Shown here piece after piece: positions 31,129-63,239 of a stretch of DNA of 64,000 nucleotides. The stretch comes from a plasmid. The DNA is taken from NCBI RefSeq assembly GCF_053078305.1, contig NZ_CP166875.1; one strand, written 5' to 3'. Both the position numbers and the translations under genes were made by a program. The notes below the pieces were generated by a model. That model was given only the letters and a program-made list of their open reading frames with translations. It was not told the DNA's origin and ran no database searches. The stretch's first letter is position 1. Every line of letters starts with the position of its first letter.

Positions 31129-31203
31129 ATGCCCGGAAAAGTTCAAGACTTCTTTCTGTGCTCGCTCCTTCTGCGCATTGTAAGTGCAGGATGGTGTGAC
31201 TGA
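31129..31203 (+). CDS. tap: Tap/RepA6 leader peptide coupled to repA1
   Basis: 24-aa peptide [24 protein letters not shown]; stop overlaps repA1 start region. Confidence 0.7.
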
Positions 31204-32053
31204 TCTTCAACAAACGTATTACCGCCAGGTAAAGAACCCGAATCCGGTGTTTACACCCCGTAAAGGTGCCGGAACGCTGAAGTTCTGCGAAAAACTGATG
31301 GAAAAGGCGGTGGGCTTCACCTCCCGTTTTGATTTCGCCATTCATGTGGCGCATGCCCGTTCGCGTGGTCTGCGTCGACGCATGCCACCGGTGCTGCGTC
31401 GACGGGCTATTGATGCGCTGCTGCAGGGGCTGTGTTTCCATTATGACCCGCTGGCCAACCGCGTCCAGTGTTCCATTACCACACTGGCCATTGAGTGCGG
31501 ACTGGCGACAGAGTCCGGTGCAGGAAAACTCTCCATCACCCGGGCCACCCGGGCCCTGACGTTCCTGTCAGAGCTGGGACTGATTACCTACCAGACGGAA
31601 TATGATCCGCTTATCGGGTGCTACATTCCGACCGATATCACGTTCACACCGGCGCTGTTTGCCGCCCTTGATGTGTCTGAGGATGCAGTGGCAGCTGCGC
31701 GCCGCAGCCGTGTGGTATGGGAAAACAGACAGCGCAAAAAGCAGGGGCTGGATACCCTGGGTATGGATGAGCTGATAGCGAAAGCCTGGCGTTTTGTCCG
31801 TGAGCGTTTCCGCAGTTACCAGACAGAGCTTAAGTCCCACGGCATGAAACGTGCCCGTGCGCGCCGCGATGCAGGCAGAACCCGCCAGGACATTGTCACC
31901 CTGGTGAAACGGCAGCTGACGCGTGAAATCGCGGAAGGGCGTTTCCGGGGAAGCCTGGAGGCCGTGAAGCGCGAAATCGACCGTCGTGTGAAGGAACGCA
32001 TGATAATGTCGCGTAACAACAACTACACACGGCTGGCCACTGCCTCCCCCTGA
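31196..32053 (+). CDS. repA1: RepA1 replication initiator (RepFIIA)
   Basis: GTG start at 31196; 285 aa; near-identical to remembered R100 RepA1. Confidence 0.92.
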
Positions 32054-36362: not shown

Positions 36363-36944
36363 TTATTTATAAAACGTTGCAATTTTAGCATCATTTTTTA
36401 TTGTTCTTTTTAACCTGAAGTACGTCGATCGAGAGATACCTGTTTTTTCTGTCACACTGCCCAGAGATTCTCCCTGTGATATAAGCTCCAACGCTGTAGG
36501 CGTTCGTGGATGCTTCTTCCTGCCAAATTTTACGCCTGCGGCAAGTGCCGCTATTCTTCCGTCGTTTGTCCGCTCCAGAATACGCTCACGTTCCGCTTCA
36601 GCTACAGCAGCAAGGATTTGGATAACCATTTTGCCCATTGTCCCTTCTGTACTGAGACCGTTCTCCAGGAACCGGATGGCGATCCCCTTTTTGTAACAGC
36701 TATCAACCACACGAATCATGTCAGCAGTGTTACGCCCCAGTCGGTCCATTTTTGTACAGATGATTACGTCGTCTTTCTCTGCACGGGCCAACAACCGCTG
36801 TAGTCCTTCCCGTTCATCAGTTGCGCCAGTCATCATATCCGTAAAAATACGATCTTCCCGTACCCCGGCATTTTTTAGCTCCGAGATTTGATGTGTTAGC
36901 TTCTGATGACTGGTTGATACCCGTGCATACCCCAATAACGCCAT
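36363..36944 (-). CDS. tnpR: serine recombinase / resolvase
   Basis: N-terminal MALLGYARVSTSHQ catalytic motif, C-terminal HTH. Confidence 0.85.
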   Translation of the reverse strand: MALLGYARVSTSHQKLTHQISELKNAGVREDRIFTDMMTGATDEREGLQRLLARAEKDDVIICTKMDRLGRNTADMIRVVDSCYKKGIAIRFLENGLSTEGTMGKMVIQILAAVAEAERERILERTNDGRIAALAAGVKFGRKKHPRTPTALELISQGESLGSVTEKTGISRSTYFRLKRTIKNDAKIATFYK

Positions 36945-37100
36945 TTTTAGTCTCACTTATCGTTTTTGACACTGCATGGTATCATAATGTACAAAATACG
37001 ATTTTTGAAACCTGCTTTTATGCTGTTTTAGACAGGTATCAGATATCTTAATATTTGATACTAGCCATATTTAACAAATATTTAGCATTTTGGTAAATGT

Positions 37101-40100
37101 ATGCAGAAGTACAAGAAAAGAATTAGTATATTAACAAAAAGTGAAATAAATGAATTATATCAAGTCCCCTCTTTTAATCCTGTTGAAAGGGATGAGTTTT
37201 TTTCGCTGGATATCAGCCTTAAAAGAGAAATTGATAAAATAATAAATATAGAAAGCAGGGTGTATCTGATATTAATAACAGGGTATTTCAGATATAAACC
37301 TGTGATTCCTGAATTTACATTAAAAGACGTAAAAAGGGATGTGAAATATATTATCCAGACATATTATAAAAACGAAAGTACTAATCTCAATTTAAACATA
37401 CCTAAAAGTACAAAGTACCGCCTTGTTAAACGAATGCTTTCTACTCTAGGATTTGAACAACTCACCCCATCTATAAAAAATGAGTTAAGTGAACGTCTGA
37501 ATGATGTTGCTACTATATGTATGGAACCAAAATATATTTTTGATGAATTACTTGCTTTTTTAGGACAGCGGCGTATAGCTCTTCCTGGATACAGTACTGT
37601 CCAGAACCTCGTTTCAGATGCTTTAAACTTTGAAAGGAAAAGGACAATTAATATTTTGTCAAAGAGAATTTATCCTGCCACTGCACAAAAGATTACATCC
37701 ATCATCCATGATGATGGAATATTAAATTCCATCAGGGGATATAATTATAGCACGAGAGACTTCTCAGCATCAGAAATAGAAAATGAATTAAGAACTCACA
37801 ATGTGATAAGTAGTATTTACTATGAAATAAAAGATATAATTAATTCATTAGGTATATCCCAGGGAAACATGGAGTACTATGCAACTATCGTAAAACACAG
37901 TACAACATTCAGACTTAAGCGACACCCTAAATGGCAAGGAATACTTTATTTGTGCTGCTACTTGTACTTCAGATACAGAGAGATAAATGATAAAATAATC
38001 ACAGCCTTCAGATATTTAGTAAAAAAACATAAAGACGCTTCAGTTTTGTTTGCAAAAGCTCGGGCAACAGAGGAAATAGATCTAATAAATAAAAAGCTTA
38101 AGTTTGCGAGTAAAATATTTAACTTCTTCGTTGATAGTAACATTGAAGACAGCATCCCTTTTGGATATGTTCGTGAAAAGGTTTTTTCACTTATATCGAA
38201 AGATGATATGCATCTTGTGAGTGAATTTTTTGACAAAAATAAAATCGATGTAATTGAATATCAATGGCAGTATATTGACAGCCATCACCTTAAGATCGCC
38301 AATTCAATCCGAAAGCTTTTTCTGGCTATAGATATAGTATATGACAACGAGAAGTCTGTTATTGGCCAGCAAATTACTGCTGCCAAGGATGATCTCAGAG
38401 GAAAAGGAAAGCTGGATGCTAAGGATCTGAGGGTAATTCATCCATCCGAGAAAAATTACATTGTAAAAGAAGGAGAAATTAACACTCAACGATTCGAATT
38501 TCATATGTACAGCAGGGTATCTAACCATCTGGAAAACGGTGTCTTTTATGCTGCGGAGAGTGAACAAAACAAGAGACTGGAAGATGATCTCATAGAACGA
38601 AGTTACTGGCATAAGAATAAATCGATTTTGATAGAGAAAACAGGCCTTGAACGACTTATCACACCAATAACGCAGACTCTTAATGAGCTGGAGAATACCT
38701 TTAGCGATAAACTGGCTCGTATAACCATTGGAATAAACTCAGATGCTAATGAGTTTGTGAAAAAACAACCACACTCCAACAGATTACAGTGGAGTCTGGC
38801 CAGTAAAAAATGGAAGACCAGCATCGATAATCCGATTTACAATCAGATAAAAAATATCGGAATAGTTGACGTAATGAAGTATGTAAACAATGAGACGAAT
38901 TTTTTGTCTGTGTTTAATGCCATATCATCCAGGAAAAATAATCTTGAAGCTGACTATAATGACCTTCTTGCCTGTATATTTGGTAATGGCGCAAATTATG
39001 GTGTTCACAGAATGGCATCTGCATCAGACCGTAGTATTGGAATACTACGTGATGTGAATGACAAATTCATTCGTCCAGAAACAACAGGAATGGCCAACAC
39101 AGTAATATCTGATGCAATTGCAAATCTTTCTGTATATAAATACTGGACGATAAATGAAGATTCTCCATTTGGAAGTGTTGATGGGCAGAAGCACACTTGC
39201 AGAATAAATACATTTAAAGCCCGTTATTCTGCCAAGTATTTCAGAAAGGGGAAAGGGGTTTCTGCGATGACACTGGTATCTAATCATGTGCCATTATCAA
39301 CTGTGGTAATTTCTCCAAATGAATATGAAGGTCATTTTGCATTTGACTTGTTATATAACAACACCAGTGAAATACAACCAAAGTCATTAGCGACTGACAA
39401 TCATGGTATAAACAACGTTAATTTTGCGATTCTTGACATTTTTGGCTATCAGTTTTCACCACGTTATGCAAAATTCAAGAAAATATTTAATGAATTATTT
39501 GATGTTATACTGGAGAGTGATAAACTCATTATAAAACTTAAAAAACAATTTAACTTTAAGCTCATTGAACATGAATGGGAAAACATCCAACATATTATTT
39601 GTTCTTTAAGCAGAAAAACAACCATTCAAAGTACGGTTGTTAAGAAGTTATCTAATACAAAGCGTAGCAACAAGACATTAGCAGCACTTCGGGAGTATGA
39701 CCGAGTTATAAAATGCATATATGTCCTGGATTATGCTGACAATAAAACCTTAAGGCAATTTGTGCAACAAGCACTGAACAGAGGTGAAGCTTATCATCAA
39801 CTAAGAAGAGCAATAGCATCAGTAAATGGAAATCAATTTCGCGGTGGTAATGACTACCAAATAGATCAATGGAACGACTGTGCGAGGTTAATAGCTAATT
39901 GTGTAATCTATTATAATTCAGCAATATTATCCAGGCTGGTCGAGAAATTTGAAAAAGAAAATAATAAAAAAGCGATAGATGTTCTGGCTAACTTATCCCC
40001 AGTAGCATGGAGACACATTCTCCTTGGAGGGAATTATTCTTTTGAAGATCAAGTTGCGATCACAAATTTGGACAGTCTTTTGGAGGGAGTAGACCCACTA

Positions 40101-40139
40101 AGTGATATCGGAGATATTGAGTCCGAATATGACGGTTAA
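37101..40139 (+). CDS. tnpA: Tn3-family DDE transposase
   Basis: 1012 aa; N- and C-terminal regions consistent with Tn3-family TnpA; low-GC codon usage. Confidence 0.85.
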   Translation: MQKYKKRISILTKSEINELYQVPSFNPVERDEFFSLDISLKREIDKIINIESRVYLILITGYFRYKPVIPEFTLKDVKRDVKYIIQTYYKNESTNLNLNIPKSTKYRLVKRMLSTLGFEQLTPSIKNELSERLNDVATICMEPKYIFDELLAFLGQRRIALPGYSTVQNLVSDALNFERKRTINILSKRIYPATAQKITSIIHDDGILNSIRGYNYSTRDFSASEIENELRTHNVISSIYYEIKDIINSLGISQGNMEYYATIVKHSTTFRLKRHPKWQGILYLCCYLYFRYREINDKIITAFRYLVKKHKDASVLFAKARATEEIDLINKKLKFASKIFNFFVDSNIEDSIPFGYVREKVFSLISKDDMHLVSEFFDKNKIDVIEYQWQYIDSHHLKIANSIRKLFLAIDIVYDNEKSVIGQQITAAKDDLRGKGKLDAKDLRVIHPSEKNYIVKEGEINTQRFEFHMYSRVSNHLENGVFYAAESEQNKRLEDDLIERSYWHKNKSILIEKTGLERLITPITQTLNELENTFSDKLARITIGINSDANEFVKKQPHSNRLQWSLASKKWKTSIDNPIYNQIKNIGIVDVMKYVNNETNFLSVFNAISSRKNNLEADYNDLLACIFGNGANYGVHRMASASDRSIGILRDVNDKFIRPETTGMANTVISDAIANLSVYKYWTINEDSPFGSVDGQKHTCRINTFKARYSAKYFRKGKGVSAMTLVSNHVPLSTVVISPNEYEGHFAFDLLYNNTSEIQPKSLATDNHGINNVNFAILDIFGYQFSPRYAKFKKIFNELFDVILESDKLIIKLKKQFNFKLIEHEWENIQHIICSLSRKTTIQSTVVKKLSNTKRSNKTLAALREYDRVIKCIYVLDYADNKTLRQFVQQALNRGEAYHQLRRAIASVNGNQFRGGNDYQIDQWNDCARLIANCVIYYNSAILSRLVEKFEKENNKKAIDVLANLSPVAWRHILLGGNYSFEDQVAITNLDSLLEGVDPLSDIGDIESEYDG

Positions 40140-40205
40140 CAACATGATAAATAATGGTTTTTATGCTAAGAGTGAGACTTTTGGAGGAAATGGGCGCAGA
40201 ACCCC

Positions 40206-40429
40206 TGTATCTGCCGTTCGGTTTTTGCACGAAGTTTTTCTGAGCTTTTACCGAACTGCATACGTTGCAGTTTCGCAACCAGCGCCTTCAGCCGGTTGAT
40301 TTCGGAAGCATAAGCCGCCACCCGCTGTGAGAGCAGGCGGTTGTATTCAGCCATCTGGCGGATGGTGTCCTGTTGCGTCTGCAACAGTGCCCGCAGGCGG
40401 GCGTTCTCATGAGCAAGTGAGGTGTCCAT
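40206..40429 (-). pseudogene. IS66-family transposase (TnpC), N-terminal fragment only
   Basis: N-terminal coiled-coil region with GKSSEK motif; reading frame continues into the Tn inverted repeat. Confidence 0.7.
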
Positions 40430-40448
40430 ATCCTCACTTTACAACGGG

Positions 40449-40796
40449 TTATATGCGGATTCCAGCGCGTTCCGTTCGTTTCGGGTGCTTCCAGTTGATA
40501 CCTTCAAGAAGCATGGATAACTGAGCCGGAGTAAGGTGCACCTTGCCGTCACGGGTGACTGGCCAGACGAAGCGGCCCCGCTCCAGGCGTTTGGTGAAGA
40601 GGCACAGTCCGTCACTGTCAGCCCACAACACTTTTATCTGGTCACCCCGGCGTCCGCGGAAGATGAACAGGTGTCCGGAGAACGGGTCATCCTTCAGGAC
40701 GTTCTGAACTTTTGATGCCAGGCCGTTAAAGCCATTTCGCATATCGGTGATACCTGCAACCAGCCAGATACGCGAACCTGCAGGGAGAGATATCAT
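40449..40796 (-). CDS. IS66 Orf2 (TnpB)
   Basis: 115 aa, characteristic IS66 orf2 sequence. Confidence 0.8.
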   Translation of the reverse strand: MISLPAGSRIWLVAGITDMRNGFNGLASKVQNVLKDDPFSGHLFIFRGRRGDQIKVLWADSDGLCLFTKRLERGRFVWPVTRDGKVHLTPAQLSMLLEGINWKHPKRTERAGIRI

Positions 40797-41473
40797 CAGT
40801 GGCTGCTCCCTTTTATTTCGCGGATAAGTGTCTGTAATAACGCCGGCGTCAGTTTACCTTTAAGCCTGAGAGTTCCGGCCGGCAGAACCAGCTCACAACA
40901 CAGACTGTCGGACGGTGTATTTATCTGCTCTGGTTCCTGTGCGGGGGCCGGGATTTTATTATCCGGCTCCGGCGTTAACGTCACGGGAAGCAGTGCCGGC
41001 ATATTTTTTCCGGAAGGCAGCAGGCCACCTTTCCGGTATTGATGGCGCCAGTTGAAGAGCAGGTTATCGTTGATTCCGTTTTCCCGGGCGATCTGCGCCA
41101 CACAGGCTCCGGGCTGCAGTGACTGCTCCACTAAGGCGATTTTAAACTCATAAGGGAAGTTGGGCCGCCGGGGACGTTTTTTTACCACGGGGGCTTCGGA
41201 TATAACGGTGCTTTCAGGACGTACGACTGGTACCGTGGAAAATTGTCCGTAAAGGCAGGCATCAAGTTCCTGCTCCGACATGCCTGCGGGCAAAGGCCAC
41301 GAAAGGCCAGCTCTCCGAAAGCGCACGAACATACTACAAACTGTTGATTTTGGTACACCCAGGCGACGCCCGGCCACAACCCGGGGTAAATGTTCTTCAA
41401 AGTGAAGACGTAAAGCTTCAGTGATCCAGGTCCGGTGTTTCATACGATAGTGTCCATTAAAAATGATGGACAT
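40796..41473 (-). CDS. IS66-family Orf1-like accessory protein
   Basis: 225-aa ORF immediately upstream of orf2 with overlapping stop/start. Confidence 0.55.
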   Translation of the reverse strand: MSIIFNGHYRMKHRTWITEALRLHFEEHLPRVVAGRRLGVPKSTVCSMFVRFRRAGLSWPLPAGMSEQELDACLYGQFSTVPVVRPESTVISEAPVVKKRPRRPNFPYEFKIALVEQSLQPGACVAQIARENGINDNLLFNWRHQYRKGGLLPSGKNMPALLPVTLTPEPDNKIPAPAQEPEQINTPSDSLCCELVLPAGTLRLKGKLTPALLQTLIREIKGSSH

Positions 41474-41849
41474 TATTTTTGTAGAGCCGGAGGAAACAGA
41501 CCAGACGGTTTAAATGAGCCGGTTACAAACAAATTCGCTTCATAAATTTCATAGTGCAGACCACATCCCCAATGAGCCTGCTTTTCCAGCCTGCTGATCA
41601 CCACATCAGCCCGGATAACATCAAAGGGATTGCGGGAATGAATATTACGAATAAAGCCATCGGTACGTGCTGCTGACATATTTCTGCCCATCTTTAATAC
41701 ACCTCTGTTTTTTGCCCCCATCATCTGTTGAGTTTCGGGAGCCGCGGTTTTGACGTTTTGCGGGGACCTGCCTTTTGTTCCCTCCGGTATTCACCATCAC
41801 CTGTTTGAGAACCTTCGCCGCAAGGGGCATCACTGCCACGGCCGGAAAC

Positions 41850-42160
41850 GACTGTCCGGGGGCAGACCGCAAAAGTTTTTGCCTGCTTTTGGGCAAAAAG
41901 TTTTGCGGGATGTGCATTTCACCCCTGGACTGGCGGAGACGGTTGTGGCTGTCTTTGCCCCCGGCGACAGGGGCTTAAACAGGTGTATGGCACCGGACAC
42001 AACAACGGGCAGGGACCCGCCGCAACGACGAAGAGCGCGTGCGCGAAACGGCGTTGCCCCTTACATCCCGGCGGCCTTTTGCCGGGATGCCAGGAGCGCA
42101 GGCCACGGCGCGACAGAGGCGGCGCGACCGGAACGGTCGCTGCAAGCCCGGGGTTTCGCG
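41850..42160 (-). promoter_or_regulatory. Frpo/ssi-like structured single-strand promoter region, copy A
   Basis: GC-rich non-coding block sharing motifs (CTGTCCGGGGGC, GAGCGCAGGCCACGGCGCGACA, GTCGCTGCAAGCCCGG) with the region upstream of ssb. Confidence 0.5.
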
Positions 42161-43016: not shown

Positions 43017-43736
43017 TCACGCCGCCTCCCGGAGTTTGTTCGGCACCATCCACCGCTCCATCTCACGGACAGCGTGACCCGCCTCCCTTGCTGCCATACC
43101 TGCCTCTGCGATGACCTGCCAGAATGGCATATCCTGCCACTGCCAGCGTTCCATCCCGGCCAGTGACGGAAAACGCTCACCCCACTGCCAGAACAGGGTT
43201 TCCAGGTCATGCTCTGCCACCCGGTCACTCCAGCGTGCATACCAGCTTCCGACTGTTTCCGGTGAATGGAACGCCAGTTCGATTTCAGCCTGAGCGACCA
43301 GCGTCTGGTACGCACGGGCTTTCTGCTCTGCCTCCCGTGCCTGCTGGCGGCTGTACTTCTGCATGACCAGCACGGATTTATGGCGACTGCGTTCCCTGAC
43401 ACGGAACCGCACCGACGGGAACAACCGCTCTGCTGCATCACCGGGAAGGGGAAGGAGGCAGACCTCGCCCTGTGTTTCAATCAGCACATCGACGGCATAC
43501 AGCCACTGAGAACGGTTGCCGCGCAGTTCTTCTGCGGTCAGGGACGGCATGAAAAATCGCAGGTCAGACAGCGAAATCCTGCGGCTTCCGTTCAGACAGC
43601 GGAAAAACGCCCCCGCATACGGATATTCCGCCAGCGTGTTACCCTGGTGGCGGCGTTTTTCTGTCTCCGCCACCGCCCGCCATGCGGCCTGTTGCTCTGT
43701 GCTGAGAGGAACCAGTGCCTGTGAACGTGCGCTCAT
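43017..43736 (-). CDS. psiA: PsiA
   Basis: 239 aa; position immediately after psiB as in F leading region. Confidence 0.88.
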
Positions 43737-44167
43737 GCCTGACCTCCTTCCGCCATCAGGATATGGATGATGTCACTGACGCTGTATCCCTGTTCATCCA
43801 GTGATGCCGCCAGTGCCAGTGAATGGCTGACAGCTTCCGGTGCAAACCGCCGCTGCACCTGAACCACCGCAAACGGCTCACCACCGGCATTCACCAGAAC
43901 CAGCACCCAGACCTGAGAGACATCGCCCGGTGAACATAACGCCAGGTGAAAACGTTCGTGGGCAGGCGTGAAACGGACCTGGACGGGGAAAAAGCCGCCG
44001 AACTCGCTGCCGTACTCGCCATTCATCGTCCAGTTGTCCGGCGCATCCAGTTCCCGCATCACGGCGTGTGTCAGCTCACGGCGTTCATCACTTCCGGCAG
44101 CCCGGATATCTTCATATTCCTGTGCGCTCATGGTCTGTAATACATTCAGGGTCAGTTCAGTTTTCAT
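43733..44167 (-). CDS. psiB: PsiB plasmid SOS inhibition protein
   Basis: Start at MKTELT preceded by gggaga; 144 aa. Confidence 0.9.
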
Positions 44168-44221
44168 CACGGTATCTCCCTTGCTGCCGCCCCGTCTCCG
44201 GCGGGGCGGTGTGGTTGTTCA

Positions 44222-46536: not shown

Positions 46537-47064
46537 TCAGAACGGGATATCGTCTGAAAATCCGTAATCCTCCCCCTCCGGCGGCTGAGGCTGAGGCTCG
46601 GGCTGCGCGGCCTTACGTCCACGGCCTTTCGTTTTCGCGCCACTTTTTTTCGTCGCGTCAGCACTCTGTGGCTGCCCATTCTGCTGAGGCTGCGGTTGTG
46701 CCTGAGCGTTCTGCTGTGGTGCAATCCCCAGCATCTGCATGGTGCCCGTGGTCTTAACAAGAATTTCAGTGACGTAACGGGTGATACCGTTATCTTCCCA
46801 GCTACGGGTTCGGAGTTGCCCCTCGATATAGACCTGCGCGCCCTTGCGCAGATATTCACCAGCCACTTCCGCGAGCTTGCCGAACAGCACCACGCGGTGC
46901 CATTCCGTCTGCTCCCGCATCTCCCCCGTCTTTTTGTCGCGCCAGCTTTCTGATGTGGCCACCTGCAGGTTTGCCACTGCGCCCCCGTTGGGGATGTAAC
47001 GGACCTCCGGATCATTGCCCAGACGCCCGACGAGGATGACCTTGTTGATACCACGTGCACTCAT
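46537..47064 (-). CDS. ssb: plasmid single-stranded DNA-binding protein
   Basis: OB-fold N-domain, Gln/Pro-rich linker and acidic C-terminal DDIPF tail. Confidence 0.92.
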
Positions 47065-47227
47065 GAGAACCTCCTGACTGAAAGATGTGAGATAAACCGG
47101 ATACCGGAGACGGGACGTTCATATGCCCCTTCAGAGGAGCGAAAGCTCCTCCTGCCGTCCACTTCTTCGGGGTTTCTCCCCGCAGTGGACCTTTCCGATG
47201 GGGGCCCGTTTACCGCCTCACGGGACA

Positions 47228-47452
47228 GCTGTCCGGGGGCGGACGCAAAATTTTTTGCCGGGTTCATGGCTAAAAATTTTGTGGCCGGTATATCTTCCCC
47301 TGGACTGATGGAACGGGAGGTGGTTACGTCTGCCCCCCGGAAAGTCCACAGCGGGAAACAGGCCGCAGAGGTGGCGGCAGAAGAGGAGCGCAGGCCACGG
47401 CGCGACAAAGGCGGCGCGACCGTTCCGGTCGCTGCAAGCCCGGGTTTTCACG
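47228..47452 (-). promoter_or_regulatory. Frpo/ssi-like structured single-strand promoter region, copy B, upstream of ssb
   Basis: Homologous to 41850..42160; non-coding, GC-rich, hairpin-rich. Confidence 0.55.
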
Positions 47453-50576: not shown

Positions 50577-51260
50577 TTACGCAGCCTCCGGCATAAACCA
50601 GTCATCATTTGCGGCCCCCTGCTGCATGGCCCGCTGTACGGCAGCCAGACGTTGCTGTCCGGCACGGTGATACTGCTCAAGCAGCTCGATACCGATATAC
50701 CGGCGTCCGGACTGGAGGGCGGCGACGCAGGTTGAGCCGCTGCCTGCAAACGGGTCCAGCACAATCGCGTTCGGATGTGTGAAGCTCTCAATCAGTGGTT
50801 GCAGGCTGGTAACGGGCTTTTCCGTCGGGTGATGGCGGTTGCCCGAATATTTCCAGCCCAGCACATCCGGCAGCGGGTTACGGGGCCGGGCCGGACTGCC
50901 CTTTGCCAGGATGTAAGCGCATTCGTGGCGGTACGCGACATACACAGATTTGGATGTGTAGTTTTTGGTGAAGACCAGGTGCCCAACCACGCTGAATCCG
51001 GCGCGTTTCCAGGCCGCCATAAAGCGGTCAATACGGTGCCAGCCGTAGAAGCTGACCATCAGCGCGTCTTTTTTGAGTACGCGGTACATCTCATTGCTGG
51101 CAGGTTGCAGCCAGTCATCATTAACGTCACCGGCAATGGTGCGCCCGGAACGGTCACGGAAACCGACGAGATATGGCGGATCGGTTAATATGAAATCAAT
51201 GGCGTTATCAGGAATCGTGGCCATAACACGCACGCAGTCACCCAGGATAAAACGGGACAT
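50577..51260 (-). CDS. orphan DNA N6-adenine methyltransferase
   Basis: Start at MSRFILGDC preceded by aaggag; DPPY catalytic motif; no restriction endonuclease partner seen nearby. Confidence 0.8.
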   Translation of the reverse strand: MSRFILGDCVRVMATIPDNAIDFILTDPPYLVGFRDRSGRTIAGDVNDDWLQPASNEMYRVLKKDALMVSFYGWHRIDRFMAAWKRAGFSVVGHLVFTKNYTSKSVYVAYRHECAYILAKGSPARPRNPLPDVLGWKYSGNRHHPTEKPVTSLQPLIESFTHPNAIVLDPFAGSGSTCVAALQSGRRYIGIELLEQYHRAGQQRLAAVQRAMQQGAANDDWFMPEAA

Positions 51261-51643
51261 AACAGCTCCTTCTCTTACAGAGGGCACCGGGAGGGCACCC
51301 CTGTGGTGCCCGTTCCCCGCTGCCTGTGGGCTGTACACCGCGTCCGGTAACGGGTCAGGCCGACCGTGGAATACCGCAGCCGTCGTCTTTTTGACGGCAA
51401 GGTTATGCCGCGAAAGCGGCTTGAAGGGCGTTCATCAGAAAAGGGCGACGGGCTGGCGTACACTGTCACCGACGCCAGCCGGGAGCGGTAAAAGCGCCCG
51501 TCCCGTGCCCGGCCGGACGCGGGACACTGACCACAGGCAGCGTTTATGCCGCGCCGCATCAGCCGGCGCAGTAAAAAGAGGAGCACAGCGACATCCTTTA
51601 CCGGAAAAGAAACGGGCGGTTGCCCGCCCGTCTCCGTCATACT

Positions 51644-52570
51644 TCATCCGCCATAATGCGCCACCTTGTCGACTATCCACGCAGGTCCGGTGACTTCCGG
51701 CAGCTCATCGTCATCTGTCGGGGAAGACCATTCCAGTTCCCCCCACAGCACATCAACGAGCTCTCCGCGCTCATACAACTGCCAGCCACAGAAATCACAG
51801 CCCTGTTCGGCATACCAGTGCTCCAGCGTGCAGCTGAAACGGCGGCTTAATTCTGCAATAACGTCGCTTTCCGGCTGACACCACGGCGTGTCGAAATCAA
51901 CCTGAATGAAGTTGTCTCCCTGACTACTGATATTCACCTCATACCCCACAGGCCACTTCACGCCATACCGTTCCGTATACCAGTGATATGCAGAAGGAAC
52001 ACCGTTCAGAACACCACCGTTAAAGCCATTCACTTCAACATCCAGGCGGGTCGGCAGAACCGTCAGCAGGTCAAACGGCATGGTTTTTTCCGGCAGTACG
52101 TTGTCACACAGACGGTTCCACCACACCGATACATCCTCGTTACTCCAGAAGCCACACCAGTCACCTCTTTTTGCGGTGAAAAGTGCGGTGATGGTATCCC
52201 TGACATCGTCCGGTAATCCTTTCCAGCGACGCTGTCCAGTACCGCTCTGCAGCCAGAGTTCATGCAGCATCAGGCAGTTTTGCTCATCCAGCAGTACACC
52301 GTCCTGCAGGTGTGTCAGCCAGCGGGTGAACGCGATATTCTCCGGCGATACAACGCCACGTCCGGCAGCCGTCAGTCCGGGGCATGGTTCAAACCGCACA
52401 TCTTCAGTGGTCTGCAGAAGTCCGGCACTTCCGGCCAGAAACAGCTGAATACCTTCATTTGTGGCGCGGCGATAAAGCGGTGTGACTGCACCGCTGGCCA
52501 GTCGTTTAATCTCAGCAATCTGTGCCGGTTCACCAGAAAAATGCATACGATTTGAGCACCAGTTTGGCAT
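51644..52570 (-). CDS. hypothetical protein (MPNWCSNR N-terminus)
   Basis: Start at 52570 preceded by gagaggag; ~308 aa. Confidence 0.55.
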   Translation of the reverse strand: MPNWCSNRMHFSGEPAQIAEIKRLASGAVTPLYRRATNEGIQLFLAGSAGLLQTTEDVRFEPCPGLTAAGRGVVSPENIAFTRWLTHLQDGVLLDEQNCLMLHELWLQSGTGQRRWKGLPDDVRDTITALFTAKRGDWCGFWSNEDVSVWWNRLCDNVLPEKTMPFDLLTVLPTRLDVEVNGFNGGVLNGVPSAYHWYTERYGVKWPVGYEVNISSQGDNFIQVDFDTPWCQPESDVIAELSRRFSCTLEHWYAEQGCDFCGWQLYERGELVDVLWGELEWSSPTDDDELPEVTGPAWIVDKVAHYGG

Positions 52571-52922
52571 GGGAATTCTCCTCTCACATGCGGCCTCCAT
52601 CAGGCCGTGCCGCACCTGTAACCGGGCGACCGCATACGAATGCAGGTGCGGCCCCGAAGCCGCATCGCGTGGAGGAGGAACGACGAAACGTGACCGGGTG
52701 AGGAGGCTGGCGACAGCGACACACTTGCATCGGATGCAGCCCGGTTAACGTGCCGGCACGGCCTGGGTAACCAGGTATTTTATTCACAGAACCGTGCGCA
52801 AAATGCTGTGGATAAGCTGGACACAGCAGTCCACAGCAGGCATACAGCCACCCCCTCAGAGAATTGAGCGTTTTTTAGTCACAATAATGACATTTGACTG
52901 TGTGGATTCAGTTATTAGAATG

Positions 52923-52938
52923 CTGTATATACATACAG
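52923..52938. promoter_or_regulatory. LexA (SOS) box CTGTATATACATACAG upstream of impC
   Basis: Matches CTGT-N8-ACAG consensus; sits ~25 bp upstream of impC start. Confidence 0.65.
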
Positions 52939-52961
52939 CAATAGAAAAGGGAGATGAGAAC

Positions 52962-53210
52962 ATGATCCGCATTGAAATTCTTTTCGACCGCCAGAGCACA
53001 AAAAACCTCAAATCAGGCACACTTCAGGCGCTACAGAATGAAATCGAACAACGTCTGAAACCACACTACCCGGAAATCTGGCTGCGTATAGACCAGGGCA
53101 GCGCCCCGTCTGTATCTGTCACAGGAGCCCGCAACGACAAGGATAAAGAACGTATCCTGTCTCTGCTGGAAGAAATCTGGCAGGACGACAGCTGGCTGCC
53201 TGCAGCATGA
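52962..53210 (+). CDS. impC: ImpC (DinI-like)
   Basis: 82-aa DinI-like protein; ATG preceded by aaaagggaga. Confidence 0.75.
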   Translation: MIRIEILFDRQSTKNLKSGTLQALQNEIEQRLKPHYPEIWLRIDQGSAPSVSVTGARNDKDKERILSLLEEIWQDDSWLPAA

Positions 53211-53644
53211 GTACCGTTTATCACCGTCCGGCTGACCCTTCAGGCGATGACAGTTACGTGCGACCGTTGTTTGCCGATCGTTGCCAGGCCGGTTTTCCTT
53301 CGCCTGCCACTGATTATGCTGAGCAGGAACTGGATCTGAACAGCTATTGCATCAGCAGACCTGCAGCCACCTTCTTTCTGCGCGCCAGCGGTGAATCGAT
53401 GAACCAGGCTGGCGTGCAGAATGGTGATCTGCTGGTAGTGGACAGGGGCGAAAAACCACAACACGGGGACATCGTTATCGCTGAGATCGACGGTGAGTTC
53501 ACCGTCAAACGACTGCTGTTGCGCCCACGCCCGGCACTGGAGCCGGTTTCAGACAGCCCGGAATTCCGCACACTGTATCCGGAAAACATCTGTATTTTTG
53601 GTGTTGTCACTCACGTGATACACAGGACGCGGGAGTTACGCTGA
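53207..53644 (+). CDS. impA: ImpA (UmuD-like, LexA-type self-cleaving protein)
   Basis: 145 aa with S24 peptidase-like motifs GESM and KRL. Confidence 0.88.
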   Translation: MSTVYHRPADPSGDDSYVRPLFADRCQAGFPSPATDYAEQELDLNSYCISRPAATFFLRASGESMNQAGVQNGDLLVVDRGEKPQHGDIVIAEIDGEFTVKRLLLRPRPALEPVSDSPEFRTLYPENICIFGVVTHVIHRTRELR

Positions 53645-54918
53645 TGTTTGCACTGGCTGATATCAACAGTTTCTACGCCTCATGTGAAAAAGTTTTCCGC
53701 CCGGACCTTCGCAACGAACCGGTCATCGTACTCAGCAATAACGATGGCTGTGTGATCGCGCGCAGCCCGGAGGCAAAAGCCCTTGGCATCAGAATGGGGC
53801 AGCCCTTGTTTCAGGTGAGACAAATGCGCCTGGAGAAGAAAATACATGTATTTTCCAGCAATTATGCGCTGTACCACAGCATGAGCCAACGGGTCATGGC
53901 TGTTCTGGAGTCGCTTTCTCCCGCAGTTGAGCCCTACTCAATTGATGAAATGTTTATTGATTTGCGGGGGATAAATCATTGCATCTCTCCGGAGTTTTTT
54001 GGTCATCAGCTCAGGGAACAGGTAAAGAGCTGGACAGGACTCACCATGGGGGTGGGCATTGCGCCTACAAAAACGCTGGCTAAAAGTGCACAGTGGGCAA
54101 CAAAGCAATGGCCACAGTTTTCCGGTGTGGTCGCGCTGACGGCAGAAAACCGTAATCGGATCTTGAAGCTACTGGGACTGCAGCCAGTTGGTGAGGTCTG
54201 GGGAGTAGGACACAGACTGACGGAAAAGCTGAATGCGCTGGGTATTAACACAGCACTGCAGCTGGCGCAGGCTAACACGGCATTCATCCGGAAAAACTTC
54301 AGCGTCATTCTTGAGCGTACGGTACGCGAACTCAACGGCGAGTCCTGCATATCCCTGGAAGAAGCACCACCGGCAAAACAGCAGATTGTCTGTAGTCGCA
54401 GTTTTGGTGAACGAATCACAGACAAAGATGCCATGCACCAGGCTGTTGTTCAGTATGCAGAGCGGGCCGCAGAGAAACTACGTGGGGAGCGTCAGTATTG
54501 CCGGCAGGTGACGACATTTGTACGGACATCCCCCTTTGCAGTAAAAGAACCCTGTTACAGCAATGCCGCTGTGGAAAAGCTTCCATTGCCCACACAGGAC
54601 AGCCGGGACATTATTGCCGCCGCATGCAGAGCCTTAAACCATGTCTGGCGTGAAGGGTACCGCTATATGAAGGCAGGAGTCATGCTGGCTGATTTCACAC
54701 CATCGGGTATAGCGCAGCCGGGATTATTTGATGAAATCCAGCCCCGTAAAAACAGTGAAAAGTTAATGAAAACACTCGATGAACTGAACCAGTCGGGAAA
54801 AGGGAAAGTGTGGTTTGCGGGGCGAGGAACCGCCCCTGAATGGCAAATGAAACGGGAAATGTTGAGTCAGTGTTATACAACTAAATGGCGAGATATTCCC
54901 CTGGCCAGGCTGGGTTAG
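53644..54918 (+). CDS. impB: ImpB (UmuC-like Y-family polymerase subunit)
   Basis: 424 aa starting MFALADINSFYAS. Confidence 0.9.
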   Translation: MFALADINSFYASCEKVFRPDLRNEPVIVLSNNDGCVIARSPEAKALGIRMGQPLFQVRQMRLEKKIHVFSSNYALYHSMSQRVMAVLESLSPAVEPYSIDEMFIDLRGINHCISPEFFGHQLREQVKSWTGLTMGVGIAPTKTLAKSAQWATKQWPQFSGVVALTAENRNRILKLLGLQPVGEVWGVGHRLTEKLNALGINTALQLAQANTAFIRKNFSVILERTVRELNGESCISLEEAPPAKQQIVCSRSFGERITDKDAMHQAVVQYAERAAEKLRGERQYCRQVTTFVRTSPFAVKEPCYSNAAVEKLPLPTQDSRDIIAAACRALNHVWREGYRYMKAGVMLADFTPSGIAQPGLFDEIQPRKNSEKLMKTLDELNQSGKGKVWFAGRGTAPEWQMKREMLSQCYTTKWRDIPLARLG

Positions 54919-54919
54919 T

Positions 54920-55336
54920 TCAGTCATCTCCGAACATATTTTCAGCGTTTCTTCTGGTCTGGTCTTCACCGTCATTTCTCGACAGACTCTGCTCTGTAAG
55001 AGGAGTACTGCAATCCACAGACGTATGGAGACCAGATTGTTTTTCCAGTAATTCAAGCAATTTCTTTTCAACCGAAAAAGCACCTGGTATCACGCTGGAA
55101 ATCACCTTATTAATATCATCCAGAGTCGTATTTTCTGTCAGTAACTCCGATATCAGCAAAGGAAGACGTTTATCTATAGCTGCAAACGCCGCACCAGTAA
55201 CTAACATCGCGCGCATGAAACGTCCCCGCTCCTTCAGTTTTTCATTTGCAATGAGCTCATCTGCTATCTTATCTCCTGTCCGTTCATCCGGGAAAAGTTC
55301 AAATGAGCAGCGTCTGGATTTATTTTCATCACTCAT
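54920..55336 (-). CDS. ParR/StbB-like partition adaptor
   Basis: 138-aa ORF immediately downstream of and overlapping parM. Confidence 0.5.
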   Translation of the reverse strand: MSDENKSRRCSFELFPDERTGDKIADELIANEKLKERGRFMRAMLVTGAAFAAIDKRLPLLISELLTENTTLDDINKVISSVIPGAFSVEKKLLELLEKQSGLHTSVDCSTPLTEQSLSRNDGEDQTRRNAENMFGDD

Positions 55337-56309
55337 TAGTCACACCACCTTTCATTTTTATCATTCCCATGACTAAATCAAACTGCGGGGATGAGCTCAG
55401 ATAAAAGCGCTCATCAGGAACCTTAGTCAGGTTCTTCACAGCCTCGGCCACAATTTCAGCCCCACCACCAACACACATTACATGTGTATAGTCGGTGAAA
55501 CGGCTGATGACATCATTAACTCGTTTAATAAGCAACTTCTGCCGTTCATTGATAACATTAATGATAGACTCACGCTGTTCAGCATTATAAATGCGACGGG
55601 AAAGGTAGTCAGGTTCATTACGGTGCACAATGATATTGTCAGCCTGGAATGAGCTCACTCTTGTATTAGCATGTACAGCCATCTGTTCCTTAACCCCGGA
55701 TGTAATCAGGGACACGCCGATATTCGGATCACACCAGGTTTTTGTAATCCCTGTCATTTTGCTACGAACATGCGACACATCAAGAGTTGTACCACCGAGA
55801 TCTACGATCAAAAGGGATTCATCATCCTCAAGCCCCGCAAGAACACTGAAACCAGCGGGAATACTTTCAGGAAGAACGGAAACACTGCGAATAACAAATG
55901 CATCACTCCCCTGCACCCGTACTTCACGCATCACATTTTTTTTCTTTCTTTCAATGTTTTGCTTATTTTTCTGATTGTTGGCGTCAAGGTATTCAGAGAT
56001 CGGCAATGTGACGATGACATCAACAGGCTGCGCTTTCAGGCCGGTCTGCTGTAGCGCATGCTGAATGGCCACAACATTCACATCACTGTACTGATAGCGT
56101 GTTTCAGTCGTTACGACAGCATCAGCACTTAATGGATCAAATGAAAACTTCTCGCCGTCGATCTCGTAATTAGCCGGGGCAGCATCATCCAGTAAACTAA
56201 AAGACCATTCCGGTTTAAAGCTGTTAGGGCTGATTAACGTTTTCACGTCACCATCCTCCAACCAGGCAAGTTTAATGTTGGTAGAACCATCATCAATAAA
56301 GATTTTCAT
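55329..56309 (-). CDS. parM: ParM/StbA actin-like segregation ATPase
   Basis: Start at MKIFIDDGSTNIKL; similar throughout to remembered R1 ParM. Confidence 0.85.
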   Translation of the reverse strand: MKIFIDDGSTNIKLAWLEDGDVKTLISPNSFKPEWSFSLLDDAAPANYEIDGEKFSFDPLSADAVVTTETRYQYSDVNVVAIQHALQQTGLKAQPVDVIVTLPISEYLDANNQKNKQNIERKKKNVMREVRVQGSDAFVIRSVSVLPESIPAGFSVLAGLEDDESLLIVDLGGTTLDVSHVRSKMTGITKTWCDPNIGVSLITSGVKEQMAVHANTRVSSFQADNIIVHRNEPDYLSRRIYNAEQRESIINVINERQKLLIKRVNDVISRFTDYTHVMCVGGGAEIVAEAVKNLTKVPDERFYLSSSPQFDLVMGMIKMKGGVTNE

Positions 56310-61464: not shown

Positions 61465-61800
61465 ATGAACAGAAAATATTATTTTAATAATATGTGGTGG
61501 GGATGGTTTATGGGTGGGTATACTCTGTATATGTCATGGGATTATGAGTTTAAATACAGATTGCTGTTCTGGTGTATTTCTCTCTGCGGAATGGTTTTGT
61601 ATCCGGTTGCCAGATGGTGTATTGAAAATACTGCCCTGAAATTTACCCGGCCTGATTTCTGGAACAGCGGTTTTTTTGCTGATACTCCCGGAAAAATGGG
61701 ATTACTTGCGGTTTATACGGGTACTGTTTTCATATTATCTCTTCCGTTAACTCTGATATATATTCTTTCTGTTATCATAAAAAGGCTGTCTGTAAGATAG
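61465..61800 (+). CDS. colicin Ia/Ib-type immunity protein
   Basis: 111-aa polytopic protein starting MNRKYYFNNMWWGW, recalled as colicin Ia immunity; convergent with colicin gene. Confidence 0.8.
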   Translation: MNRKYYFNNMWWGWFMGGYTLYMSWDYEFKYRLLFWCISLCGMVLYPVARWCIENTALKFTRPDFWNSGFFADTPGKMGLLAVYTGTVFILSLPLTLIYILSVIIKRLSVR

Positions 61801-61821
61801 ACAGCCTGTCTTATATATTAT

Positions 61822-63239
61822 TTAAATGCCCCAGAACTTATTCGCTTTTTCCACAAGCGTTTCATCAATCAGTGCACCGGTGACAGCCATCAGTAAACCA
61901 TACCCGATAATGCCTAAAGCGCTTCCGGTAAGAATACTGAAGACCAGAGCAACAAGAGCCGTTGCGGCATTACCTGCTATGATGGTTTCTGTTTTAACAA
62001 AAAAGGACGCCAGTTATCTGTCCGGGCAGCCTTACCAAACTCAGTGATCCAGTCAGCAAAATTTGTAATTTTTCCTGCATATCCCAGTCCGCGACTGAAC
62101 CTGTTCAGATTAGACGATATATCAGACAGCTTCACAGACTCAAGGGCTGCGGCAATCGCTGCACGATCTTTTGCATTAATTTTTTTGTTAATGTCAGTCC
62201 GGTACTTTTCATACGTTTTTAATGCCTCTTCAACATTACGTATTTTCTTCCCTTTAGCCTGCCCGGCCATCTCTCTGGCTAACTGCTCAGCTTTTGCACC
62301 ATATTTTTCTGAAACTGATTTCAGGAACTCTGTTGTGAAATTAATTGCGTCTTTCGTTGCCTTCAGTTCATCCTGTTTTCTTTTCTCTTCCGCTATCTTC
62401 TGATTGATGCCGGCAAGCTGGTTACGGGTATTCTCTTTTTCCTTCAACAGGGCATTAAGAGCGTCATTTGCATGCTTTTGCTCATTTGTTCTGGCACTGA
62501 GGTTATTTCTCACCGAATTTACCGCAGATTCAGCAGAGGTGATTTTATTTCTGGCATCAAGCAATCTTTGCCGTAACTTATCCCATTCAGTAACTTCAGC
62601 ATTATAAATTTTCTTGTCACCTTCCACATCCTCTGTCACCACCGGATTCCGGTCATTCAGAATATTGCGTTTATAGTCCAGACCGGAATGAGTCAGAAGA
62701 TAATTCAGGTTTGCACGGTTATCGATGACTGCGCTGGTTGTGATTTTTATCGTATCGGCAAATCTCGGATCACCGCTCACAACAATAGAATGATTTGTTG
62801 ATGAACGCCCCGGGAATTTTTCAGAGGAAACTATCGTTTTGCCGTCAGGCGTGTTTTTCTGTTGCGTCAGCTGTTGTTCAGCTCTGGTTAATGCATTACG
62901 GGCCGTGTTAAGCGATTCCGTCACCGAACTGAGTTTATTCCGGGCCTCTGAAATGGCCCTGTCATTCCGTGTCTGCTGCTCGAGCAGACGGGCCTGTTGT
63001 GCATCAAGAACGGCAAGGGCTGCCCCGCCCTTTTTTTCCAGCTCTGACAACCGCGTATTCAGAATACCTTTTCTGCGCTCGTATTCAGCAAGCATATCAG
63101 CGGCCTTCTTGTCTGCGTTCTGCGCATCCTTCTGCCGTTTTTCAGCCTGTTCAATTAACGACCTGGCCTCGCGGGGAGATATACGAAGAGAATCAGCATC
63201 AGCAAACAGCATCCGGCTCTCTGTATGTGTCAACGCCAC
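61822..63239 (-). pseudogene. cia: colicin Ia-like pore-forming colicin, 5'-truncated and frameshifted
   Basis: 420-aa ORF matches colicin Ia from HTESRMLFADADSL onward; final ~50 codons (channel domain, ending KFWGI) are in another frame after a T-run near 62005..62015; colicin Ia N-terminus (MSDPVRITNPG...) not found in any frame upstream. Confidence 0.75.

What the first reader, a model, noticed from the sequence alone, without database searches (positions are those of the whole stretch)
52923..54918. LexA-controlled impCAB mutagenic repair operon
A consensus SOS box sits immediately upstream of a DinI-like, UmuD-like, UmuC-like operon. It runs on the strand opposite to the surrounding leading-region genes. 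An error-prone polymerase inducible on entry could raise mutation rates in transconjugants.
Basis: partly seen in the sequence, partly recalled or inferred. Interest (0 to 1): 0.4.

Follow-up and report, generated by a model that had tools for sequence, protein, structure and literature searches.

The report
Known SOS-controlled impCAB polymerase operon
This is an intact copy of impCAB, a long-known plasmid operon for a damage-inducible error-prone DNA polymerase kept off by the host LexA repressor, so the finding is correct but ordinary.

Summary
A LexA (SOS) box, TGCTGTATATACATACAGCA (52921-52940), matches the 20-mer consensus at 17 of 20 positions. It is the only such site in the window and never appeared in 100 shuffles. 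It overlaps the -10 hexamer of the best sigma-70 promoter in the region. Three translationally coupled genes follow: impC (DinI-like, 82 aa), impA (UmuD-like, 145 aa) and impB (UmuC-like, 424 aa). The ImpB catalytic carboxylates, steric gate and clamp motif are intact, as are the ImpA cleavage site and Ser/Lys dyad.

The proteins differ from those of plasmid R64 by 0, 1 and 1 residues. More than 2,000 plasmid records carry the operon. Published work shows SOS induction of a near-identical operator and toxicity on overexpression.

The opposite-strand placement at the end of the leading region is also a published generality: 90.3% of plasmid umuDC homologues lie this way, read as "not expressed early". 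Here the leading region is also cut off from any oriT by IS66- and Tn3-family elements.

This copy has some small peculiarities. The promoter spacer is 2 bp shorter, the operator has A→G at position 2, and ImpA A81G and ImpB W55L are private substitutions. Verdict: already known, low interest.

The parts
52894..52899 (+). -35 hexamer TTGACT of the imp promoter
   Evidence: Promoter scan, best site in 52500-55500 at 10/12. Invariant in 6 aligned plasmids. Predicted only; no transcript mapping.
52900..52915 (+). 16-bp promoter spacer. It is 2 bp (TG) shorter than the 18-bp spacer of R64, ColIb-P9 and nearly all relatives. The deletion also removes the weak second LexA-like site (CTG-N10-CAG becomes CTG-N8-CAG).
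   Evidence: Alignments. None of 1402 full-length plasmid hits or 938 E. coli RefSeq hits matches exactly. The same 2-bp deletion occurs in NZ_CP074358.1. The second site is listed with HI 13.49 in pTF2 (PMC12211044) and is absent here.
52916..52921 (+). -10 hexamer TAGAAT; its last base is the first base of the SOS box
52921..52940 (.). LexA operator (SOS box) TGCTGTATATACATACAGCA; core CTG-N10-CAG at 52923-52938. Position 2 (52922) is G where most relatives have A.
   Evidence: unique, 17/20, 0 in shuffles. Conserved CTG/CAG half-sites in 6 plasmids. Analogous boxes lie 33-39 nt upstream of the first gene in five other umu-type operons. The near-identical pTF2 box has HI 1.60 with SOS-dependent protein induction (PMC12211044).
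52947..52953 (+). Shine-Dalgarno AAGGGAG, 8 nt before the impC ATG
   Evidence: Read directly from the sequence.
52962..53210 (+). impC: 82-aa DinI-like protein, probable modulator of RecA* activity
   Evidence: Pfam DinI 65 bits. Matches PDB 1ghh DinI at E 6.8e-6. 32% identical to E. coli DinI, with the acidic C-terminal helix conserved. 100% identical to R64 and IncK2/Z ImpC. Below the NCBIfam DinI equivalog cutoff (41 vs 111 bits), so it is a paralogue, not DinI itself.
53207..53644 (+). impA: 145-aa UmuD-like S24 self-cleaving subunit. Cleavage site A28-G29, nucleophile S64, general base K101. Private substitution A81G (53448).
   Evidence: UmuD 8gmt E 1.2e-35; 47% identity to UmuD; residues mapped against C24-G25, S60, K97. 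(A81G in 0 of 2334 plasmid records)..
53644..54918 (+). impB: 424-aa UmuC-like Y-family DNA polymerase. Catalytic D6, D101, E102; steric gate F10-Y11; beta-clamp-type motif QPGLF 358-362. Private substitution W55L (53807).
   Evidence: NF002955, 789 bits; 57% identity to UmuC; W55 invariant in 6 comparators; W55L in 0 of 2333 records.

Best explanation
This is an intact copy of the impCAB operon of I-complex (IncI1/K/B/O/Z) plasmids, here carried on a mosaic plasmid with F-type transfer genes. It is the plasmid counterpart of dinI plus umuDC (DNA polymerase V).

Shown by sequence:
- A strong sigma-70-type promoter whose -10 element and predicted start site are covered by a high-quality LexA operator.
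- Three translationally coupled genes.
- All residues needed for UmuD-type self-cleavage and for Y-family polymerase catalysis.

Inferred from established knowledge of LexA, UmuDC and MucAB, and from published work on imp:
- In undamaged cells host LexA dimers occupy the box and block RNA polymerase.
- DNA damage generates RecA* filaments, LexA self-cleaves, and the operon is transcribed.
- RecA* then promotes ImpA cleavage at A28-G29 to ImpA'. An ImpA' dimer plus ImpB, with RecA-ATP and the beta clamp, forms a Pol V-like translesion polymerase.
- That polymerase copies past UV and chemical lesions at the price of mutations, giving UV protection and induced mutagenesis.
- ImpC, the most strongly induced product, most likely acts like DinI on RecA filaments to time or limit ImpA processing.

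Tight repression matters because overexpression is toxic. The operon lies at the distal boundary of the leading region on the non-T-strand-transcribed strand. It is therefore a resident, SOS-dependent function rather than an early-entry function.
For: SOS box unique in the window, 17/20 to consensus, 0 in shuffles. It overlaps the best promoter.

Family assignments are above curated cutoffs for UmuD and UmuC. Identity is 57%, 47% and 32% to E. coli UmuC, UmuD and DinI, with catalytic and cleavage residues conserved.

The proteins differ from R64 ImpC/A/B by 0, 1 and 1 residues. About 2,000-2,330 PLSDB plasmid records and about 900 of 5,426 complete E. coli genomes carry the operon.

Literature:
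- ImpC 21-fold, ImpA 9-fold and ImpB 2-fold up in a strain with a hyper-induced SOS response (mutated lexA); box HI 1.60 (PMC12211044).
- impCAB overexpression causes a severe growth defect, and the genes are under purifying selection across 460 I-complex plasmids (PMC10286972).
- UV protection and mutagenesis by imp in TP110 and Shigella are cited. Those primary papers were not readable here.
- umuCD homologues bound leading-region islands, and 90.3% are not T-strand oriented (PMC11541004).
Against: No experiment was done on this copy.

Its operator differs at position 2 from the tested pTF2 site. Its promoter spacer is 16 bp instead of 18 bp.

ImpB carries W55L at a Trp that is invariant in all six UmuC-type comparators. 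ImpA carries A81G. Neither substitution is seen in about 2,330 plasmid records, so activity of this allele could be altered. Solved DinB-type polymerases have L or M at the aligned position, so loss of function is not implied.

The role of ImpC is inferred from DinI at only 32% identity.
Confidence: 0.93

Rival explanations
1. Attenuated or re-tuned allele. The operon is impCAB by descent, but in this plasmid lineage its expression or activity has been changed or partly lost. This could be because the operon is toxic when over-expressed, or because constraint relaxed after transfer to an F-type backbone. The changes would be the 18-to-16 bp promoter spacer, the operator A-to-G, ImpA A81G and ImpB W55L.
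For: Within 52700-55000 the window has five private SNPs and one 2-bp deletion relative to five relatives. Three SNPs and the deletion fall in the 260-bp regulatory region. Both coding changes are non-synonymous. W55 is invariant in six UmuC-type proteins. Neither W55L nor A81G is found in about 2,330 plasmid records. Published dN/dS for impA and impC is about 0.001 (PMC10286972), and overexpression is toxic.
Against: The numbers are tiny: two coding changes. All catalytic and cleavage residues are intact and the reading frames are complete. L or M occupies the aligned position in active DinB-type polymerases. 16-bp and 18-bp spacers are both one step from the 17-bp optimum. The 2-bp deletion recurs in another plasmid and the operator G variant in about 7, so these look like ordinary polymorphisms. 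Sequencing or assembly error cannot be excluded.
Confidence: 0.12
2. Early-entry mutator. The operon is induced when the plasmid enters a new cell, and it transiently raises mutation rates in transconjugants.
For: The operon sits next to leading-region genes. Conjugative ssDNA entry can induce SOS (Baharoglu et al. 2010, cited in PMC12211044; not read here).
Against: The operon is on the strand opposite to all leading genes, so the incoming T-strand is its coding strand and cannot serve as template. The operator and promoter need duplex DNA. The published survey reached the same conclusion: 90.3% of umuCD homologues are not oriented for T-strand transcription and are 'not expressed early'. The repressor is host LexA, already present in the recipient. 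psiB lies in the same block, with known Frpo-type ssDNA promoters at 47134-47381 and 41706-41972, and it counters RecA*. Deleting impCAB did not change conjugation frequency. In this window no oriT adjoins the block.
Confidence: 0.05
3. Chance palindrome. The 'SOS box' is a coincidental AT-rich palindrome and the operon is expressed constitutively or from another promoter.
For: The loose pattern CTGT-N8-ACAG occurs three times in the window against 0.89 expected, so loose patterns do arise by chance.
Against: The 20-mer match is unique, with 0 in shuffles. It overlaps the -10 element. It is conserved in position and half-sites across divergent umu-type operons. A one-base variant behaves as a LexA-regulated operator in vivo.
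Confidence: 0.01

Closest known systems
impCAB operon of IncI1 plasmids TP110, R64 and ColIb-P9 (Lodwick, Owen & Strike 1990; Glazebrook et al. 1986; cited)
   Same: Same three genes in the same order with the same overlaps. The neighbours are the same: a divergent DUF1281 gene upstream, and convergent stbB/parM one nucleotide downstream. The operator core is the same. Proteins are 82/82, 144/145 and 423/424 identical to R64. DNA is 99.4-99.5% identical to the best plasmid hits.
   Different: The promoter spacer is 16 bp, not 18 bp, so the weak second LexA-like site is lost. Operator position 2 is G, not A. ImpA carries A81G and ImpB carries W55L. The host replicon is a mosaic with MOBF TraI and F-type tra genes rather than an I-type transfer system.
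E. coli chromosomal umuDC (DNA polymerase V) plus dinI
   Same: LexA box 37-39 nt upstream of the first gene. Small S24 subunit followed by an overlapping Y-family catalytic subunit. Conserved D6/D101/E102, Y11, clamp-type motif, Ser/Lys dyad and GFPSPA cleavage region.
   Different: Identity is only 57% (ImpB vs UmuC), 47% (ImpA vs UmuD) and 32% (ImpC vs DinI). The cleavage site is Ala-Gly rather than Cys-Gly. The dinI-like gene is fused into the operon as its first cistron, whereas dinI is unlinked on the chromosome.
Other plasmid umuDC-type operons: samAB-like on Salmonella pSLT-type plasmids, Klebsiella IncF umuDC, and mucAB of pKM101 (the last from knowledge only)
   Same: SOS box immediately upstream, and two overlapping umuD/umuC-type genes beside partition genes. 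ImpB is 66-70% identical to these catalytic subunits.
   Different: Most lack the dinI-like first gene. A Raoultella plasmid has a diverged three-gene impC/impA/samB version at 69% ImpB identity. mucAB was not fetched or compared here.

Membership tests
impCAB operon of I-complex plasmids | Three co-oriented, overlapping genes in the order dinI-like, umuD-like, umuC-like | tested here: met
   ORFs at 52962-53210, 53207-53644 and 53644-54918, with ATGA and TGATG overlaps. Domain assignments.
impCAB operon of I-complex plasmids | Near-identity to ImpC/ImpA/ImpB of reference IncI1 plasmids | tested here: met
   82/82, 144/145 and 423/424 identical to the R64 proteins. 99.8% identical to an annotated 'impB: DNA polymerase V subunit ImpB'.
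impCAB operon of I-complex plasmids | Conserved location between the divergent DUF1281 gene at the end of the leading region and the convergent stbB/parM partition genes | tested here: met
   Same neighbours in IncK2/Z p3RM9976, R64 and ColIb-P9.
impCAB operon of I-complex plasmids | UV protection and UV/chemical mutagenesis phenotype | not testable with these tools
   Known for TP110 and the Shigella virulence plasmid from papers cited.
LexA (SOS) regulon member | CTG-N10-CAG operator close to consensus and overlapping the promoter | tested here: met
   17/20 to consensus, unique in the window, 0 in shuffles, overlaps the -10 element.
LexA (SOS) regulon member | LexA binding and derepression on DNA damage | not testable with these tools
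   Shown by proteomics for the one-base-different pTF2 operator (PMC12211044). Not shown for this exact sequence.
DNA polymerase V type (UmuD'2C) translesion polymerase | Y-family catalytic subunit of the UmuC subfamily with catalytic Asp/Asp/Glu and a steric-gate Tyr | tested here: met
   NCBIfam NF002955 at 789 bits against a cutoff of 431. D6, Y11, D101 and E102 are aligned and invariant.
DNA polymerase V type (UmuD'2C) translesion polymerase | S24 self-cleaving accessory subunit with a cleavage site and Ser/Lys dyad | tested here: met
   NF007621 at 141.9 bits against a cutoff of 110. A28-G29, S64 and K101 align with UmuD C24-G25, S60 and K97.
DNA polymerase V type (UmuD'2C) translesion polymerase | Beta-clamp-binding pentapeptide in the C-terminal part of the catalytic subunit | tested here: inconclusive
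   QPGLF at 358-362 aligns with UmuC QLNLF, and Q, L and F are invariant. Binding itself was not tested.
DinI (equivalog, chromosomal DNA damage-inducible protein I) | Score above the NCBIfam equivalog cutoff for DinI | tested here: not met
   41.1 bits against a cutoff of 111. ImpC belongs to the broader Pfam DinI-like family (65 bits against 24.2) but is not the DinI orthologue.

The most novel reading that the evidence does not exclude
This copy may be a naturally re-tuned or attenuated imp allele. Several changes are concentrated in one operon: a promoter spacer shortened from 18 to 16 bp (which also deletes the weak secondary LexA-like site), an operator A-to-G change, and private substitutions at ImpA A81 and at ImpB W55. 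W55 is invariant among the UmuC-type polymerases compared. Such a pattern would indicate selection to change the expression or activity of a toxic mutagenic polymerase after it moved onto an F-type plasmid backbone.
Probability: 0.1. Interest if true: 0.3.

Novelty: already known. Interest (0 to 1): 0.1.

Why it matters
The operon matters in general. It is a plasmid-borne, SOS-inducible error-prone polymerase found in roughly one in six complete E. coli genomes, and it can raise survival and mutation supply under DNA-damaging stress, including some antibiotics.

All of this is established for impCAB. Nothing in this copy changes the picture.

The useful outcomes here are:
- The annotation is confirmed.
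- The 'induced on entry' idea runs against the gene orientation and the published analysis.
- A few private regulatory and coding variants are catalogued. They would matter only if they were shown to change expression or activity.

Tried and rejected
- **Original papers.** I tried to read the TP110 and Shigella imp papers (PMC332119, PMC213445, PMC96475). None is held, so the phenotype statements rest on citations in later papers.
- **First protein scan.** It used a wrong impC start and failed. The correct ATG is 52962.
- **F-type nic site.** I searched the window for an F-type nic sequence recalled from memory. There were no matches, so no oriT can be placed next to the leading block. No I-type nic sequence was searched, and no relaxase other than MOBF TraI was seen among the listed ORFs.
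- **Source plasmid.** I tried to identify it through the IS66/psiA junction. There is no exact record in PLSDB.
- **2-bp promoter deletion.** I first thought it unique. That was rejected, because NZ_CP074358.1 has it too.
- **Hairpin at 52600-52790.** I tested whether the GC-rich hairpin between the DUF1281 gene and the imp promoter is a known ssDNA promoter. It has no blastn similarity to ColIb-P9 Frpo1 or F Frpo2, although both have clear homologues elsewhere in the window. There are no direct repeats of it in the leading region.
- **Rfam.** The scan of 52000-56000 found nothing meaningful.
- **Terminator.** The pattern scan found no intrinsic terminator downstream of impB.
- **Heterology index.** I did not compute one for this exact box, because the Lewis matrix was not available. 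Only the published value for the one-base variant is quoted.
- **Not used.** The large protein-database searches and structure prediction were deliberately left unused, because sequence-level evidence was already decisive.
Full report
**Observation.** The 20-mer TGCTGTATATACATACAGCA (52921-52940; core CTG-N10-CAG at 52923-52938) matches the LexA consensus TACTGTATATATATACAGTA at 17 of 20 positions. It is the only match with up to three mismatches in the 64-kb window, and none occurred in 100 dinucleotide-preserving shuffles. The looser pattern CTGT-N8-ACAG occurs three times against 0.89 expected. The other two hits (6809, 12283) have GC-rich spacers. The next-best 20-mer in the window scores 16/20 and lacks the CAG half-site.

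The box begins at the last base of the -10 hexamer of the best sigma-70-like promoter in the region, TTGACT(52894)-16 bp-TAGAAT(ending 52921), which scores 10/12. Bound LexA would therefore cover the -10 edge and the predicted start site. A Shine-Dalgarno sequence, AAGGGAG (52947-52953), precedes the ATG at 52962.

**The genes.** Three ORFs follow on the + strand: 52962-53210 (82 aa), 53207-53644 (145 aa) and 53644-54918 (424 aa). They overlap as ATGA and TGATG, which indicates translational coupling.

| Product | Family evidence |
|---|---|
| ImpC, 82 aa | Pfam DinI-like 65 bits; matches the DinI structure 1ghh; below the NCBIfam DinI equivalog cutoff, 41 vs 111 bits, so a paralogue of DinI |
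| ImpA, 145 aa | Peptidase_S24; NCBIfam UmuD model 141.9 bits, cutoff 110; matches UmuD structures (8gmt, 1umu) |
| ImpB, 424 aa | IMS, IMS_C and DUF4113 domains; NCBIfam UmuC subfamily model 789 bits, cutoff 431 |

I aligned the products with E. coli K-12 proteins fetched for the purpose. ImpB is 57% identical to UmuC, ImpA 47% to UmuD and ImpC 32% to DinI.

The residues that define activity are all present:
- ImpB has D6, F10-Y11 (steric gate), D101-E102, and QPGLF (358-362) aligned with the UmuC clamp motif QLNLF.
- ImpA has the cleavage site A28-G29 within QAGFPSPA (UmuD has C24-G25), the nucleophile S64 and the base K101.

**Relatives.** The 2.3-kb region is 99.4-99.5% identical to many conjugative I-complex plasmids (IncI1, IncK2/Z, IncI-gamma). 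About 2,000 records hold most of it. About 2,330 plasmid records contain the impA and impB segments I queried. The promoter segment occurs in 895-1,107 of 5,426 complete E. coli genomes, almost always on plasmids.

Relative to the reference IncI1 plasmid R64, ImpC is identical, ImpA differs at one residue and ImpB at one residue. Some records annotate the genes explicitly as impC, impA and impB. The neighbourhood is the canonical one seen in R64, ColIb-P9 and an IncK2/Z plasmid: a divergent DUF1281 gene upstream, and convergent stbB/parM partition genes one nucleotide downstream.

More distant plasmid umu-type operons have ImpB identities of 66-70%. These include a Salmonella pSLT-type plasmid, Klebsiella IncF plasmids and an Erwinia plasmid. 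E. coli umuDC belongs in the same comparison. All carry an SOS box 33-39 nt upstream of their first gene. That shows the operator is a conserved functional element rather than a chance palindrome.

**Published evidence.** On the IncI1 plasmid pTF2 the operator TACTGTATATACATACAGCA has a heterology index of 1.60. It differs from the window's box only at position 2. In a strain with a hyper-induced SOS response (multiply mutated lexA), ImpC rose 21-fold, ImpA 9-fold and ImpB 2-fold. Deleting the genes did not change conjugation frequency (PMC12211044).

On the I-complex plasmid pMS7163B, transposon insertions that drive impCAB were counter-selected. Induced expression caused a severe growth defect. 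The genes are conserved under strong purifying selection in 460 I-complex plasmids (PMC10286972).

The UV-protection and mutagenesis phenotypes of imp (TP110; Shigella virulence plasmid) are cited in those papers and. The primary papers could not be read here.

**Mechanism.** Two things are shown by sequence: the operator-promoter overlap, and complete coding capacity with catalytic and cleavage residues. The rest is inferred from established LexA, RecA and Pol V biology and from the imp literature.
- Host LexA represses the operon.
- DNA damage activates RecA*, LexA cleaves itself, and the operon is transcribed.
- RecA* promotes ImpA self-cleavage at A28-G29.
- An ImpA' dimer plus ImpB, with RecA-ATP and the beta clamp, performs error-prone translesion synthesis.
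- ImpC, by analogy with DinI, modulates RecA* to time or limit that processing.

**Context, and the 'induced on entry' idea.** Pfam confirms that the left flank carries leading-region genes, all on the - strand: psiA (43017-43736), psiB (43733-44170), a ParB-like gene, ssb (46537-47064) and a DNA methylase (50577-51338). Homologues of known ssDNA promoters lie at 47134-47381 (ColIb-P9 Frpo1, 81%) and 41706-41972 (F Frpo2, 87%).

The leading genes are read from the incoming T-strand. The imp operon lies on the other strand, so the T-strand is its coding strand. It cannot be transcribed, and its operator cannot exist as duplex DNA, until the complementary strand is made.

This arrangement is a published generality. 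umuCD homologues often form the terminating boundary of leading-region anti-defence islands. [quoted passage not shown]

In addition, LexA is supplied by the recipient, and PsiB antagonises RecA* (established knowledge).

In this window the block is not even adjacent to an oriT:
- The window is a mosaic with F-type tra genes. MOBF TraI (1756 aa) lies at 20802-26072 on the + strand.
- A Tn3-family transposase and resolvase lie at 36.4-40.1 kb, and IS66-family remnants at 40.2-41.5 kb cut the leading region just beyond psiA.
- No F-type nic sequence is present.

The hedged suggestion of an entry-induced mutator is therefore not supported. The general statement that carriage of imp can raise damage-induced mutagenesis remains reasonable.

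**What is peculiar to this copy.** Against five relatives (IncK2/Z, R64, ColIb-P9 and two others), the window has six private differences in 52700-55000.
- C-to-T at 52708 and A-to-C at 52852, both intergenic.
- A 2-bp TG deletion in the promoter spacer, near 52900.
- A-to-G at 52922, which is operator position 2.
- C-to-G at 53448, giving ImpA A81G.
- G-to-T at 53807, giving ImpB W55L.

The deletion shortens the spacer from 18 to 16 bp. It also turns the weak second LexA-like site of relatives (HI 13.49 in pTF2) from CTG-N10-CAG into CTG-N8-CAG. No plasmid or E. coli record matches the 100-bp promoter segment exactly. However, the same 2-bp deletion occurs in NZ_CP074358.1, and the G variant occurs in about seven plasmids.

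W55 is invariant in six UmuC-type comparators, including UmuC itself. Neither W55L nor A81G is present in about 2,330 plasmid records. On the other hand, the solved DinB-type polymerases aligned have L or M at the equivalent position, so loss of function is not implied.

These differences could be ordinary private polymorphisms, sequencing errors, or a mild re-tuning of a toxic operon. The data cannot decide. I give the last reading about 10%.

**Verdict.** The element is a textbook member of an already described and experimentally studied operon, and its strand placement at the edge of the leading region is also already described. Novelty: already known. Interest: low.

Noticed in passing
window 52894-52940: The imp promoter/operator differs from nearly all relatives. 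A 2-bp TG deletion makes the -35/-10 spacer 16 bp instead of 18 bp and abolishes the weak second LexA-like site. Position 2 of the SOS box is G instead of A. No exact 100-bp match exists in PLSDB or RefSeq E. coli, but the deletion recurs in NZ_CP074358.1 and the G variant in about 7 plasmids.
   Followed up: yes
window 53448 and 53807: There are two private non-synonymous changes. ImpA A81G and ImpB W55L are each absent from about 2,330 plasmid records. W55 is invariant in six UmuC-type comparators, though L or M occupies the aligned position in solved DinB-type polymerases.
   Followed up: partly
window 52600-52790: A long GC-rich imperfect hairpin lies between the DUF1281 gene and the imp promoter. 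The ssDNA fold is about -52 kcal/mol, with z -3.3 on the minus strand and -2.6 on the plus strand. It is placed like an ssDNA promoter or ssi for the leading-region genes, but it has no similarity to ColIb-P9 Frpo1 or F Frpo2.
   Followed up: partly
window 47134-47381 and 41706-41972: Homologues of known single-strand promoters are present: ColIb-P9 Frpo1 (81% identity), just upstream of ssb, and F Frpo2 (87%), beyond psiA next to the IS66 remnant.
   Followed up: partly
window 36363-41500: A Tn3-family resolvase and a 1012-aa transposase (37101-40139), together with IS66-family tnpA/tnpB remnants, truncate the leading region just beyond psiA. No oriT adjoins the block. The window is an F-type/I-type mosaic (MOBF TraI at 20802-26072, an ORF at 31184-32053 in the position of the RepFII initiator of a related IncF plasmid, IncI1-like segment 52-63.2 kb), and its source is not in PLSDB as an exact record.
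   Followed up: partly
window 61465-63239: The colicin Ia gene appears truncated at its 5' end. It is a 420-aa ORF with the Colicin_Ia and pore-forming domains, and similarity to IncI1 plasmids stops near 63227. It therefore lacks its own promoter, which in intact colicin Ia genes is SOS-regulated (from general knowledge). The 111-aa immunity gene (61465-61800) is intact.
   Followed up: partly
window 54916-54922: The impB stop codon and the stop codon of the convergent stbB gene are separated by a single nucleotide. No intrinsic terminator was detected downstream of impB. SOS-induced transcription could therefore run antisense into the stbB/parM partition operon. The same 1-nt arrangement is present in R64 and ColIb-P9.
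   Followed up: no
window 6809-6824, 12283-12298, 39128-39147: Other partial SOS-box-like matches lie inside tra genes and inside the Tn3-family transposase gene. They have GC-rich spacers or lack the CAG half-site, so they look like chance matches.
   Followed up: partly
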